Origin: Styela clava
Lineage: Eukaryota
DNA: 64,000 bases
Assembly (NCBI RefSeq): GCF_964204865.1
Contig: NC_135263.1
Location: 2,418,001-2,482,000, forward strand
Reading direction: 5' to 3'
The number at the start of each line of letters is the position of its first letter. Within the stretch, counting starts at the first letter, position 1. Positions 30,001 to 64,000 of the stretch are shown one piece after another. A program made the position numbers.

Positions 30001-33000
30001 TCTGTCGCATTCTCGTAAAAGACTCACCGAGACGCTTAATTTGCCGCGATAAACGTCAACGTCTTCCATGTGCTTCACAGCTTCAAACCACTTAACTTCG
30101 GGGCTTTTTCTTGTCTACAATAACAAAATAAACAATCATGATATAGCGGAGTCGGAAAATTTGCACCCAGCTGCGACTCAAAACTCCGATTATTTTAAAA
30201 TATGAATCCGATACAAAAAAATTAATCCCAACTCTGGCGTTTTGTCGACTCTTTCGAATATACATCGAAAAATGTTGTAATATAAAAAGATAACGTCATC
30301 ATTTAAAAATTAATCCCGACTCTGGCGTTTTGTCGACTCTTTCGAATATACATCGAAAAATGTTGTAATATAAAAAGATAACGTCATCATACAGAATAGT
30401 TACGCATGGTATAAAAATTGACGTCATAATGCAAATACATAAATAATACAAAAAGTTTCAATAATTACGACGTCATAATGCAAAAAAGTTTTTATGATTT
30501 TAAAAAAGACATCATAAAAAAAAATTGAATAAGATTACGCCATAATACAAAAAGTTTCAATAATTACGACGTCATAATACAGATTTTATGATTTCGAAAA
30601 AATTTAAGTCATAATATAAAAAGATGAAGTAATAACAAGCGATGAAGACGTATCACAGTTTTTAAATAATTATCATCGCATATCGAAATGACTTTAAATA
30701 AACCATGGTATGATATGTCGGTCGCCCAAAAACAAGTTAACAGAATACTGAGGACGTTTCTCACCTGTTTCTTACCCAAGGTTAATGCCTGTTGGAGAAC
30801 AGCTTTGTCCTTTGTTGTTAATTTTGACTTACATACGCCTTGACAGTTTGCCAAGTTGAGTTCTTTGGAGATTCTTCCTTTGGCCAATAATTCGTGTAAG
30901 TGGATGAAAGCTGTAGTGTTGAGAGTACAGCCATTCAAATTGACAATCTTCAACTGAAAGCATTTGAAAAAAAACAAGATAACAGTGCTATATATGAACA
31001 CGAAAACTGAAACGACGTATGTTATTAATGTCGTTTAGTTATATTGTTAATATTTATAGATACATTATAACTATTTAACTGTGCAAAAGCCAGGATGTGA
31101 GATGTGCGTATCACTGGATAAGGATTTACTAGACAAGGGGAGTGCAACCTATACAAATAAATAGGTGAAAACGCGGGTCGGCCTTTATTCAACATAGGCT
31201 ATCTAGTAGTTGCAGGCTTAAAAATTTGGATTATTGATCTTATGATAGGCGCTGTTCGCTTCGCACAAGCTAGTTGTTAGGGCAGTATAAAGTCATGGGC
31301 AAAAATAAAAAGTCGCACCCCCGCTTTCGTACAGTTCAAGTAGTTTATATATGTGCATAAATAAGTATCATAGTAATTATAAAAAAGTGAGGAATATTAA
31401 TAATACAGCGAATACGAAGCAAACTTCCTTCCCAGGTACGACAAAGTTCGTCATCGGGCACGAAATGCTCCGCGATTTAGAAACGTTGCAATAATATATT
31501 ATATGATATATATGATGTACGATATATATCACTATTTATTTACCGATGTTTTTACCTATGCCGTTTAGTTAATAGTATTACTTAATATTTATGCACAAAT
31601 TATAAACTGTACAAAATCCGGAGTGCGAATTGTTCGGAACACTGGGTCAGGGGTGGGCAACCCGTGGTAGGCGTGCCAAACTTGGCACGCGAGCCCATTT
31701 ATTCGGCACGCGAGTGAGGCCTCAGAAACGAGATAATTCTTCTTTAGATAAAACGTTTCGAGACTCTAAATTATATGATGAAATTCGGTGTTCGTTTATT
31801 CATTATATATCGTTTGTTAATAATCCGCTCTTTATTTAAATTCATTTTGTCCTTTCATGACATATGACCACAATAAAAAATATTATGACATAACAAATGA
31901 GTGGGCTTTCGAGATATTTTGTCGAGAAGAGCGCAGCACTCATTTGGCTATACTCTAGCGTAATACCAGTATAGTTCATCTGTGCCATCTTTTTCTATGT
32001 TCATGCAGTTCTACAGCTCATGTTGGTTAGAGTTACTTGCTAACTTACTGTTATAAATTGATTTCAAATGAAATATTAGCGATTAGAGAATGGAATACAA
32101 GAGAGAAGTGCAGAAAACGAACTATTGCGTGATTGGGATGTCATTTCCGAAAATTTTTCGTGTCTTAAAAACTTTGCAACTGCATTACTCTCCATGTTTT
32201 CATCTACATATGCTTGTTAATCTCTGTTCTCAGGTATGAACTTTATTAAGTCTCGTAATGGGAGTAGCCTGAAAGATGAAACCAGTAGTTCGTGTATTCC
32301 TTTGAAATTTACAAAATACAAACCCAATGTAAAATCTCTATCTGCGGTAATGCTGCAGCAGAAGTCTCACTGATATTGGATAGGAAAAGTAATCGAATCT
32401 ATTTCGGACTGATATTTTCCCGAATCGTGAATCTGTCTGCACGCGAGAGAATTTTGTCGTTAAATTTAGCCGATTTTGACACGCGAGCCGAAAAAGGTTG
32501 CCCACCCCTGCACTAGATAATGATCTATTACAATATTTATTTACTCATCTTTATATGTGTTTTACTTATCCGATTCACACTTCAAACTAGGCTCTAAGCA
32601 GTCACTGATTCGTGAAGAACTCTTTTAAAAAGAGGAATTTCATCGGTTGGGCATGACCCATGACCTTCCTAATTTATTACAACCAGGGTGAGGAAGTTAA
32701 TTCTTATTGTATGAACTTTATTACTCTGAAAAAAAAAATGTAAGGAGCTCTCACTTCTCTTTGGCAGTTCAATATTCCGGCCAACAACCTTTCAGAGTTT
32801 TCTTCGTTAAGTTCTCTTGGAACTTCGATGGAATTGACAACCCCGCGGGTGATAAGGTCTATAATAGCATCAACACACTCATTGTTGTGAACGTTGTCCA
32901 TCAAGTTCAAATGTACGCTCTGAAATTATAAAATAGGAATATTTAGAGAAGATATGCTCAATGAATAAACTGAATAAAATAGGCTGAGGGCTCCAGAAGG

Positions 33001-63000: not shown

Positions 63001-64000
63001 TGAGAATTGGTAATTTGGTTGTATTAAGTTGGGAATGATATTTTTGGTTGTATTAAGATGGGAATTGAATAGATGGTTTTATTAAAATGAGAATTGGTTC
63101 TATTAATACAACCAAATACAACATTCCCAATCTATACCATTCCCATCTTAATACAATCAAATATTTAATTTCCATCTTAATACAACCAAATATCCTATCT
63201 TATCTCAGTACGACCAATTATCCAATTCCCATCTTAATACAACCCAATATCCAATTTTCATCTCAATATAACCAAATACTATATTCGCATCTCAATACAA
63301 CGAAATATCCTTTCCCAACTTGATACAGCCAAATATCCAATTCTCCTATCTCATCTCCGGAACAACCAAACACAACATTTCCACTTAATACAACCAAACA
63401 TATCATTCGCTTCTTAATACAACCAAATATGATTTTCTCATCTTAATACAACCAAAAACCTTGTCCCATCTTAATACAATCAAATATCTAATTTCCATCT
63501 CAATACAACTAAACATCCCATTCTCCCTATTCAAATACACTATTCCCATCTTAATACAACCAAACTGTACTTCCCTATCAGTGAATCCACCCAAATTCGA
63601 GGATTCTAGCGTATGAACCGGGAAACACAAGAACGACTATCGTATTTCCAACGTCTAACACAATAGGCCAACTGGAAGGAATCAAAGTCATACTTACTTT
63701 CAAGCTAGTATTCTTCTGTATTACTCCAAGAACTTTTGATAGCAAACGTGCATCTTTGAAACATTCTTTTAATTCAATTTTCTCGAGTTTTGAATATTCC
63801 AACACTTCCAAAAGTTTTTCAAAAGACTCCTGAGGTACAGAGCTCAAAGATAGTTCTCTTCCACACTTATGTGGTGCAATAGAATGAAGAGTCTGTATAT
63901 TGTACACGTTTCTCGCCTTGCTGTCTCGCTGGGCATATCTTGATTGTATTTCATTGAACGCCATTTTGCTATGAGCGCTACCGCGAGTTTATATTAGTTT

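What the first reader, a model, noticed from the sequence alone, without database searches (positions are those of the whole stretch)
30028..63964. LRR head resembles a detached NLR-type LRR module
Seen: LxxLxLxxC/N-like strands spaced about 27-30 aa apart (ELSLSSVP, LEKIELKEC, LKNVHLDIQHN, VNSVEVP, MKILNLNGSTL, INKFLNLSNC) and a terminal KLKIEWF/PEVKWF strand. Exons B and C are phase 0-0 and carry about two repeats each. Established: RI-like LRRs of NLR genes are commonly encoded by symmetric exons of one or two ~28-aa repeats, and sit C-terminal to a NACHT domain. Here the LRR begins at the initiator Met (similar MxFxx starts in genes 1 and 3; in-frame stop upstream in gene 1). Inference: an NLR-derived or PRAME-like stand-alone LRR.
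Basis: partly seen in the sequence, partly recalled or inferred. Interest (0 to 1): 0.65.

Follow-up and report, generated by a model that had tools for sequence, protein, structure and literature searches.

The report
Tandem genes for small LRR-only proteins
Three neighbouring genes encode small proteins made almost entirely of ribonuclease-inhibitor-type leucine-rich repeats, an ordinary kind of protein-binding scaffold, and nothing links them specifically to NLR immune receptors.

Summary
On the minus strand lie three head-to-tail paralogues: gene 1 from 63964, gene 2 from 35866, and gene 3 from 789, which runs off the window. All exons have AG/GT borders and are phase 0-0. The copies are old and under purifying selection (pN 0.31-0.42, pS 0.83-0.92).

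A search with free register and unit length for the printed RI-class LRR consensus finds the same five units in both genes. They match 35 and 34 of 50 consensus cells. Within-exon shuffles give about 25, and 0 of 4000 reach the observed value. None of 3000 sets of unrelated ORF pieces reaches it either. Exons B and C each begin at unit position 1 and hold exactly two units.

Weaker tests failed, and no Pfam or PDB profile search recognises an LRR. 

No NACHT or other domain lies in the 64 kb. Exon sizes (165 and 189 bp) and the exon register differ from the NLR pattern. CpG is not depleted, so the contig is not vertebrate.

Verdict: an LRR-only protein family of a known kind. The reading "RI-like stand-alone LRR" is supported. 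"NLR-derived or PRAME-like" is not.

The parts
63698..63964 (-). Gene 1 exon A, 89 aa. ATG at 63964 (MAFNE...). A cap-like N-terminal 32-34 aa, then LRR units 1 (from aa 33-35) and 2 (aa 60-89).
   Evidence: Sequence and GTAAGT donor. In-frame TAA at 63991-63989. 38-43% identical to the exon A copies of genes 2 and 3. Unit starts.
61551..61715 (-). Gene 1 exon B, 165 nt / 55 aa, phase 0-0. LRR units 3 (27 aa) and 4 (28 aa).
   Evidence: AG/GT borders. 26 of 55 residues identical to gene 2. The unit starts at the first residue of the exon.
59155..59343 (-). Gene 1 exon C, 189 nt / 63 aa, phase 0-0. LRR unit 5 (28 aa, the most canonical) and a long degenerate unit 6.
   Evidence: 33 of 63 residues identical to gene 2. 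An in-frame stop lies directly before the acceptor.
58174..58263 (-). Gene 1 exon D, 90 nt / 30 aa. The last strand-like KLKIEWF and the following segment.
   Evidence: Only 5 of 29-30 residues are identical to gene 2.
57443..57583 (-). Gene 1 exon E, 141 nt / 47 aa, basic (pI 11.8). It ends at a GTAAGT; reading on gives a stop after 5 codons.
   Evidence: Found by similarity to gene 2 (E 3e-7). Borders. Composition.
35588..35866 (-). Gene 2 exon A, 93 aa. ATG at 35866 (MKSCLSY...). LRR units 1 and 2.
   Evidence: In-frame TGA at 35878-35876 with no AG between it and the ATG.
32755..32919 (-). Gene 2 exon B, 165 nt / 55 aa. LRR units 3 and 4.
30765..30953 (-). Gene 2 exon C, 189 nt / 63 aa. 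LRR units 5 and 6.
   Evidence: The first codon is TTG (Leu); tools running table 11 show it as M.
30028..30114 (-). Gene 2 exon D, 87 nt / 29 aa (PEVKWF strand).
29187..29336 (-). Gene 2 exon E, 150 nt / 50 aa, basic (pI 10.4). It ends at a GTAAGT; reading on gives a stop after 8 codons.
523..789 (-). Gene 3 exon A, 89 aa from ATG 789 (MNFKQ...). The rest of the gene lies beyond the window start.
   Evidence: A further in-frame ATG lies 16 codons upstream.

Best explanation
The window holds three head-to-tail paralogous genes on the minus strand. Their start-to-start spacing is about 28.1 and 35.1 kb.

Each gene encodes a small, probably intracellular protein. Gene 1 is traced for 284 aa and gene 2 for 290 aa. 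The protein has three parts:
- a short hydrophilic N-terminal segment;
- five well-supported units plus one or two degenerate units of a ribonuclease-inhibitor-class leucine-rich repeat, each 27-30 aa and read as a short strand followed by a helix;
- a basic C-terminal segment.

It is an LRR-only protein, the architecture of ribonuclease inhibitor, and not the repeat arm of a larger receptor.

Shown: the gene models, their age and purifying selection, the repeat and its fit to the RI-class consensus, the two-units-per-exon layout, and the absence of any other recognisable domain in 64 kb.

Inferred:
- The units stack into an alpha/beta arc.
- The strand face, which is better conserved than the rest, binds a protein partner shared by the paralogues.
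- The basic tail serves localisation or nucleic-acid contact.
- The family arose by tandem duplication.
For: Gene models. Every exon has an AG acceptor and a GT donor. All lengths are multiples of 3. Exons B and C have the same length in both genes. Similarity between the paralogues stops at the proposed borders. pN is 0.31-0.42 against pS 0.83-0.92.

Repeat, free search. The best 5-unit chain matches 35/50 (gene 1) and 34/50 (gene 2) cells of the RI consensus LxxLxLxx(N/C)xLxxxgoxxLxxoLxzxxxx, printed in PMC6642158 (passage). Shuffles give 24.5 +/- 1.3 and 25.8 +/- 1.3, and 0 of 4000 reach the observed values. The same five units are found in both genes and coincide with exon starts. None of 3000 sets of real non-family ORF pieces reaches 34.

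Repeat, fixed register. Positions 4 and 6 were left out because they set the register. Gene 1 matches 21/32 against 9.7 +/- 2.3 (0 of 20000 shuffles). Gene 2 matches 20/32 (1 of 20000). All 9 units match 47/72 with paralogues permuted jointly (0 of 20000).

Per position over the 9 units: positions 4, 6, 19 and 23 match 9/9, position 22 matches 8/9, position 1 matches 7/9, and position 9 (N/C) matches 6/9.

Units compared with each other. Units 3 and 5 are both anchored at exon starts. They align ungapped with z 3.46, p 0.0005. 9 of 15 unit pairs have p<0.05. hhalign puts exon B against exon C in register, P 0.0084.

Stand-alone. 0 of 150 minus-strand and 0 of 146 plus-strand ORFs has a Pfam family below E 1e-3. 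The longest ORF is 141 aa.

Strand face. 19/30 residues are identical between genes 1 and 2, against 47/117 elsewhere (Fisher p 0.025).

N-termini are hydrophilic (gravy -0.7 to -0.8) and exon E has pI 10.4-11.8.

PMC3879445 (passage) reports that RNI-like LRRs of sponge NLRs are also missed by Pfam's sequence HMMs.
Against: No library recognises an LRR:
- Pfam finds no LRR family in 0 of 8 peptides at E<=1 and 0 of 7 exons at E<=10.
- NCBIfam and PADLOC find nothing relevant.
- Seven PDB searches give no significant LRR hit. The best LRR-related value is RanGAP1 at E 0.14.
- A 14-unit profile gave 4 LRR proteins among 13 weak hits, best E 0.25. A cleaner 9-unit profile gave 0 LRR proteins among 3 hits.

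Several tests fail. Leave-one-exon-out profiles do not recover the left-out exons: they rank 10 to 299 of 1658. Hydrophobic autocorrelation and the HCS-only chain test are at chance. The amphipathic-moment test is not significant for most exons.

The consensus fit is incomplete. Gly15 is never present (0/9) and position 11 fits in only 3/9 units. Units 6 and 7 score at background.

The fold was never predicted.

The 3' end is open. Exon E ends at a perfect GTAAGT in both genes, so further coding exons may exist. None was found.
Confidence: 0.7

Rival explanations
1. NLR-derived module. The LRR was detached from a NACHT-LRR receptor gene and now stands alone. It might act as a decoy or as a trans-acting sensor arm.
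For: The repeats are RI-class, the class used by NLRs (PMC6642158 passages). The exons are symmetric and carry two units each, as NLRP exons do (PMC6642158 section 6). The genes form a tandem family.
Against: No NACHT or NB-ARC lies in 64 kb. No NLR chain appears in any PDB search at E<=10. Exon lengths are 165 and 189 bp, not 171 or about 84. The border lies at unit position 1, not inside the strand. The strand face is more conserved than the rest, not diversified. CpG obs/exp of 1.07 points to a non-vertebrate genome. NLRs are absent from D. melanogaster and C. elegans and were lost in many ecdysozoans (PMC3879445 passages). RI-class LRRs also occur in many non-NLR proteins.
Confidence: 0.08
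2. PRAME-like or cysteine-containing (F-box-type) LRR. The protein would be a substrate-recognition subunit of a ubiquitin ligase.
For: Cys sits at consensus position 9 in 4 of the 9 core units. This fits the LxxLxLxxCxxL form of the conserved segment quoted in PMC4030839 (passage). The protein is small and intracellular.
Against: No F-box, BC-box or other adaptor motif is found by Pfam in any exon. Units of 27-30 aa fit the RI length; the shorter unit length of the CC class is recalled, not tested. No PRAME or FBXL chain appears in the PDB searches.
Confidence: 0.07
3. Not an LRR solenoid. The consensus fit reflects a generic strand-helix alternation of another alpha/beta fold, or a lineage-specific repeat of another architecture.
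For: No LRR profile in Pfam or the PDB sees it. Leave-one-out profiles fail. The HCS-only test is at chance. Gly15 and Leu11 of the consensus are missing. No structure was obtained.
Against: The signal is specific to a unit length of 27-30 and to the RI pattern (controls). It recurs in register in both genes and coincides with exon borders. From recall, not tested: no other common repeat family has units of 27-30 residues beginning xxxLxLxxN/C.
Confidence: 0.15
4. Head of a larger protein. Exons A-E would be only the N-terminal part, and further 3' exons encode another domain.
For: Both copies of exon E end at a perfect GTAAGT in phase 0. 21-28 kb of sequence follows before the next gene.
Against: Three searches found no conserved coding piece downstream: ORF-against-ORF BLAST, a splice-site-constrained candidate search and profile searches. 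No Pfam domain is found in any ORF there. Reading through the GTAAGT gives stops after 5 and 8 codons. In gene 1 an AATAAA follows 25 nt later, but the motif is frequent: 217 copies in the window.
Confidence: 0.3

Closest known systems
Ribonuclease inhibitor (RNH1)
   Same: A cytosolic protein composed entirely of RI-class LRRs and built by exon duplication (PMC10400534 passages). Here too there are units of about 28 aa, two units per symmetric exon, and no other domain.
   Different: No sequence match to RNH1 chains in the PDB at E<=10. Only 5-7 units. Gly15 of the consensus is absent. A basic tail is present. The genome is non-vertebrate, whereas RNH1 is described as conserved among mammals.
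LRR domain of NLRs (e.g. NLRP3)
   Same: RI-class consensus. Frame-preserving exons. Two repeats per exon in NLRPs (PMC6642158 section 6).
   Different: No NACHT is present. Exons are 165 and 189 bp, not 171. The border lies before the strand at position 1, not inside it. Units are 27, 28 and 30 aa rather than a strict 28/29 alternation. There is no sequence similarity.
RanGAP1 and tropomodulin LRR domains
   Same: Short RI-type LRR arcs in non-immune cytosolic proteins. These are the only LRR proteins that surface, weakly, in the PDB searches: RanGAP1 at E 0.14 and 4.6, tropomodulin at E 3.6.
   Different: The hits are not significant and vanish with the cleaner profile. Those proteins carry further domains.
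PRAME / LRRC14 and F-box CC-type LRRs (recalled, not tested by any search)
   Same: Intracellular LRR proteins in which Cys often occupies position 9 or 10 of the conserved segment.
   Different: No adaptor motif and no sequence match were found. The unit length here is longer than the CC class as I recall it.

Membership tests
Leucine-rich repeat proteins, RI-like class | Tandem units with the conserved segment LxxLxLxxN/CxL (PMC4030839 passage) | tested here: met
   Over 9 core units: position 1 fits 7/9, position 4 fits 9/9, position 6 fits 9/9 and position 9 (N/C) fits 6/9. Position 11 fits only 3/9. A test on this segment alone is at chance.
Leucine-rich repeat proteins, RI-like class | Unit length of about 28-29 aa and the variable-segment pattern xxxgoxxLxxoLx (PMC6642158 methods) | tested here: met
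   Units are 27, 30, 27, 28 and 28 aa. Positions 19, 22 and 23 fit 9/9, 8/9 and 9/9. Gly15 fits 0/9. The free search gives 35/50 and 34/50, reached by 0 of 4000 shuffles. Wrong lengths and the S/T pattern at 23-25 aa are not significant.
Leucine-rich repeat proteins, RI-like class | Recognition by curated LRR profiles | tested here: not met
   No Pfam LRR family in 0 of 8 peptides at E<=1 and 0 of 7 exons at E<=10. The search was exon by exon only. Structure-based RNI-like profiles, which PMC3879445 says are needed for some LRRs, were not available.
Leucine-rich repeat proteins, RI-like class | Curved solenoid with parallel strands inside and helices outside | not testable with these tools
The two accepted jobs were interrupted.
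NLR (NACHT-LRR receptors) | A NACHT/NB-ARC domain in the same gene, N-terminal to the LRR | tested here: not met
   0 of 296 ORFs (53 aa or more on the minus strand, 55 aa or more on the plus strand) has any Pfam family below E 1e-3. The longest ORF is 141 aa. Stops lie just upstream of the ATGs of genes 1 and 2.
NLR (NACHT-LRR receptors) | LRR exons of 171 bp (28+29 aa) or one 28-aa unit, with the border inside the beta-strand (PMC6642158 section 6) | tested here: not met
   Exons are 165 and 189 bp. Both start at unit position 1, two residues before the strand positions 3-5.
NLR (NACHT-LRR receptors) | LRR units group with NLR units in a phylogeny | not testable with these tools
   The homology searches over eukaryotic proteins were closed and the genome is not available. 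PDB profile searches found no NLR chain at E<=10.
PRAME / LRRC14 | Sequence relationship to PRAME-family LRRs | tested here: inconclusive
   No such chain appears among the PDB hits. I did not verify that PRAME-family chains are in that library.
RNH1 orthologues | Sequence similarity to ribonuclease inhibitor | tested here: not met
   RNH1 structures exist (2q4g is cited in PMC6642158), but none is hit at E<=10 by any exon or unit profile.

The most novel reading that the evidence does not exclude
In a non-vertebrate lineage that has lost or never had NACHT-LRR fusions, these small RI-class LRR proteins could be free-standing sensor arms. They would pair in trans with LRR-less STAND ATPases or other effectors, making a split NLR-like system kept as a tandem family.
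Probability: 0.04. Interest if true: 0.7.

Novelty: new member of a known kind. Interest (0 to 1): 0.25.

Why it matters
It adds a divergent LRR-only family that standard sequence profiles miss, and shows that a consensus-register test can still detect such repeats exon by exon. The conserved strand face, and the absence of the diversification seen in immune receptors, point to a housekeeping or regulatory binding role. Without the organism, transcripts or homologues, the wider significance is small.

Tried and rejected
It was replaced by ORF-by-ORF scans.
No fold search could therefore be run.
- Bacterial and archaeal genome scans: exon A gave no relative among 67 pattern matches. Exon C gave 1 of 122, in Marinobacter sp. 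CHS3-4. This is a helix (ELLKELLQKGR) inside a 983-aa SNF2/RapA-like helicase, and I take it for chance.
- Tau hit: an engineered tau repeat construct (6cvn_D) hit the exon C profile at E 9.8e-5. The value comes from four copies of one 18-residue peptide, each scoring only 8.3-8.4 bits. I rejected it as spurious.
- EAD6 Pfam hit on exon C of gene 1: E 0.037, below the cut-off and absent in gene 2. Rejected.
- NCBIfam, PADLOC and Rfam: nothing relevant. No tRNA genes were found.
- Search for exons beyond exon E: nothing conserved.
- The Cys-rich ORF at 20508-20822 has no counterpart behind gene 1.
- Statistical tests at or near chance: hydrophobic autocorrelation, HCS-only chain, leave-one-out profiles and amphipathic moment.
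- Scripts: one search had a bug and was redone. One search timed out and was redone.
- Literature searches for a named family gave no lead.
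Full report
**What is there**

The window is 64 kb with 36% G+C and no N. CpG obs/exp is 1.07 overall and 0.92-1.19 per 8 kb. I therefore do not take the contig for human or any vertebrate; that vertebrate genomes are CpG-depleted is my own knowledge. The start contexts caaaATG of genes 1 and 3 would suit an invertebrate. The organism stays unknown.

An all-against-all comparison of 1658 stop-to-stop ORFs found conserved, collinear pieces on the minus strand only. From these and the splice signals I read three head-to-tail genes:

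| Gene | Exon A | Exon B | Exon C | Exon D | Exon E |
|---|---|---|---|---|---|
| 1 | 63964-63698 | 61715-61551 | 59343-59155 | 58263-58174 | 57583-57443 |
| 2 | 35866-35588 | 32919-32755 | 30953-30765 | 30114-30028 | 29336-29187 |
| 3 | 789-523 | off the window | | | |

- Every exon has an AG acceptor and a GT donor, and all are phase 0-0.
- Exons B (165 nt) and C (189 nt) have the same length in both genes.
- Amino-acid identity between copies is 38-43% (A), 47% (B), 52% (C), 17% (D) and 43% (E).
- Synonymous sites are saturated (pS 0.83-0.92) while pN is 0.31-0.42. These are old duplicates under purifying selection, not pseudogenes or transposon copies.

**Exon by exon**

Every search used single exons or parts of exons. 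This leaves the whole-domain fold untested.

Tools that run table 11 show an initial TTG as M. This affects exon C of gene 2, exon D of gene 1 and one unit of gene 3.

**Is the repeat real?**

The quoted strings are all present.

My first three tests were negative:
- Autocorrelation of hydrophobic residues peaks weakly at lag 28 in gene 1 (z 1.8), but the family-wise p is about 0.5 in both genes.
- A chain test using only LxxLxLxxNxL gave p 0.75 and 0.43.
- Unit profiles built without one exon ranked that exon 10th to 299th of 1658 ORFs.

Tests with less freedom, or with the full class consensus, were clearly positive.

*Units against each other.* Units 3 and 5 both start at an exon's first residue, so their register is not my choice. 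They align without gaps at z 3.46, p 0.0005. 9 of 15 unit pairs have p<0.05, and 12 of 15 have z>0. The pairs at p>=0.05 are U1-U2 (0.095), U1-U3, U1-U4, U1-U5, U3-U4 (0.053), U3-U6 and U4-U6. hhalign aligns exon B with exon C in register (P 0.0084) and exon A with exon C in the expected register (P 0.017). Exon A with exon B is not significant (P 0.26).

*Fit to the RI-class consensus.* The consensus is printed in the methods of PMC6642158 (passage seen). The nine core units match 65 of 90 cells. Without positions 4 and 6, which I had used to set the register, they match 47 of 72 against 22.9 +/- 3.5 in shuffles. Gene 1 alone matches 21/32 (0 of 20000 shuffles) and gene 2 alone 20/32 (1 of 20000). 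With paralogues permuted jointly, 0 of 20000 shuffles reach the observed value.

*Free search.* Start and unit length (27-30) were left free for real and shuffled data alike. The result was 35/50 and 34/50 cells for five units, against about 25 +/- 1.3, with 0 of 4000 shuffles reaching it. The optimal path puts units at aa 33, 60, 90, 117, 145 in gene 1 and 37, 64, 94, 121, 149 in gene 2. Exons B and C therefore each begin exactly at unit position 1 and hold two units.

*Controls.*
- RI pattern with units of 20-25 aa: reached by 30 and 49 of 1500 shuffles.
- RI pattern with units of 32-36 aa: reached by 910 and 232 of 1500.
- S/T-class pattern at its own 23-25 aa: reached by 196 and 242 of 1500.
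- Sets of real, unrelated ORF pieces from the window: maximum 33, so 0 of 3000 reach 34.

Later units (6 and 7) score at background.

**What no library sees**

- Pfam reports no LRR family for any exon at E<=1 (0 of 8 peptides) or at E<=10 (0 of 7).
- NCBIfam and PADLOC give nothing relevant.
- Seven PDB sequence searches give no significant LRR match. RanGAP1 appears at E 0.14 with the exon C profile.
- A 14-unit profile gave 4 LRR proteins among 13 weak hits. A cleaner 9-unit profile gave 0 LRR proteins among 3 hits.
- The only formally significant hit is an engineered tau repeat, which is an artefact of four identical short stretches.

The family departs from the consensus at Gly15 (0/9) and position 11 (3/9). 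PMC3879445 (passages) notes that RNI-like LRRs of sponge NLRs are also invisible to Pfam's sequence models. Silence of Pfam is therefore weak evidence against.

**Fold**

The two accepted jobs (exon A and exon C alignments) were interrupted. No model and no fold search exist. The solenoid is inferred from the repeat pattern only.

**Stand-alone or head of something larger?**

Upstream:
- Gene 1 has an in-frame TAA 9 codons before its ATG, with one AG between them, so an upstream exon is not excluded.
- Gene 2 has a TGA 3 codons before its ATG and no AG between them.
- In gene 3 the frame stays open upstream.

Other domains: no ORF in the window exceeds 141 aa. None of 150 minus-strand and 146 plus-strand ORFs has a Pfam family below E 1e-3. 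No NACHT exon is therefore near any of the three genes.

Downstream: both copies of exon E end at GTAAGT in phase 0, which suggests another exon. ORF-against-ORF BLAST, a splice-constrained candidate search and profile searches found nothing conserved. Reading on gives stops after 5 and 8 codons. The nearby AATAAA is uninformative, because the motif occurs 217 times in the window. The 3' end is unresolved.

**Likely working**

- The N-termini are hydrophilic, so there is no signal-peptide-like segment. Exon E is strongly basic, with pI 11.8 and 10.4.
- Strand-face positions 2, 3, 5, 7 and 8 are 63% identical between genes 1 and 2, against 40% for the other positions outside the core (Fisher p 0.025; p 0.07 if the core positions are pooled with the rest).
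- This is the opposite of the diversification expected of pathogen receptors. It fits a conserved protein partner bound on the concave face.
- These functional statements are inference.

**Comparison with the known**

The architecture is that of ribonuclease inhibitor, a protein made entirely of RI-class LRRs that grew by exon duplication (PMC10400534, passages). There is no sequence similarity to it.

Against NLRs:
- PMC6642158 (section 6 read in full) describes NLRP exons of exactly 171 bp (28+29 aa), NOD/NLRC exons of one 28-aa repeat, and a border inside the beta-sheet.
- Here the exons are 165 and 189 bp, and the border is at unit position 1.
- NLRs are absent from D. melanogaster and C. 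elegans and were lost in many ecdysozoans (PMC3879445, passages).

The PRAME and CC-type comparison rests on recall.

**What stayed unchecked**

I could not ask whether the family is already annotated, how widely it occurs, or how it relates to NLR LRRs. Supplementary files of the cited papers were not seen. Supplementary Fig. 1 of PMC6642158 may hold exon-register details relevant to the comparison.

**Verdict**

This is a real, anciently duplicated family of small LRR-only proteins of the RI class. It is divergent enough to escape sequence profiles. It is ordinary in kind, with no evidence for an NLR origin.

Noticed in passing
61952-63522 (intron 1 of gene 1): A minisatellite of about 1.5 kb with 28-29 bp units, in three blocks of alternating orientation (reverse 61960-62045, forward 62098-63044, reverse 63106-63554). 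It could form a long hairpin. A sub-threshold Rfam miRNA match (31.8 bits against a gathering score of 180) lies at one orientation switch.
   Followed up: partly
22785-27500: A near-identical (97-100%) tandem duplication with a period of about 2.1 kb and an inner 489-bp duplication, between genes 2 and 3. No Pfam domain is present.
   Followed up: partly
39252-40174 and 43157-44101: Direct repeats of about 0.9 kb, 84-90% identical and about 3.9 kb apart. They look like an LTR pair. No ORF with a Pfam hit lies between them.
   Followed up: no
4286-4477, 18388-18603, 27543-27746, 57939-58142: An interspersed repeat containing a GC-rich palindrome that translates as 'GPRA...' in several frames. 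One copy lies just after exon D of gene 1.
   Followed up: no
4944-5131, 10072-10259, 58975-59162: Another interspersed repeat family (63-80% identity). The last copy abuts the donor site of exon C of gene 1 and explains why that ORF runs on past the exon.
   Followed up: partly
57880-58278 (+): A 132-aa open frame antisense to exon D of gene 1, with no family hit. It is probably repeat-derived.
   Followed up: partly
20508-20822 (-): An open frame with a CxxC...CxxC motif and weak zinc-finger-type Pfam hits (E 0.006-0.1). It has no counterpart behind gene 1.
   Followed up: partly
whole window: CpG is not depleted (obs/exp 1.07) while TpA is low (0.83). This indicates a genome without germ-line CpG methylation in this region.
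   Followed up: partly
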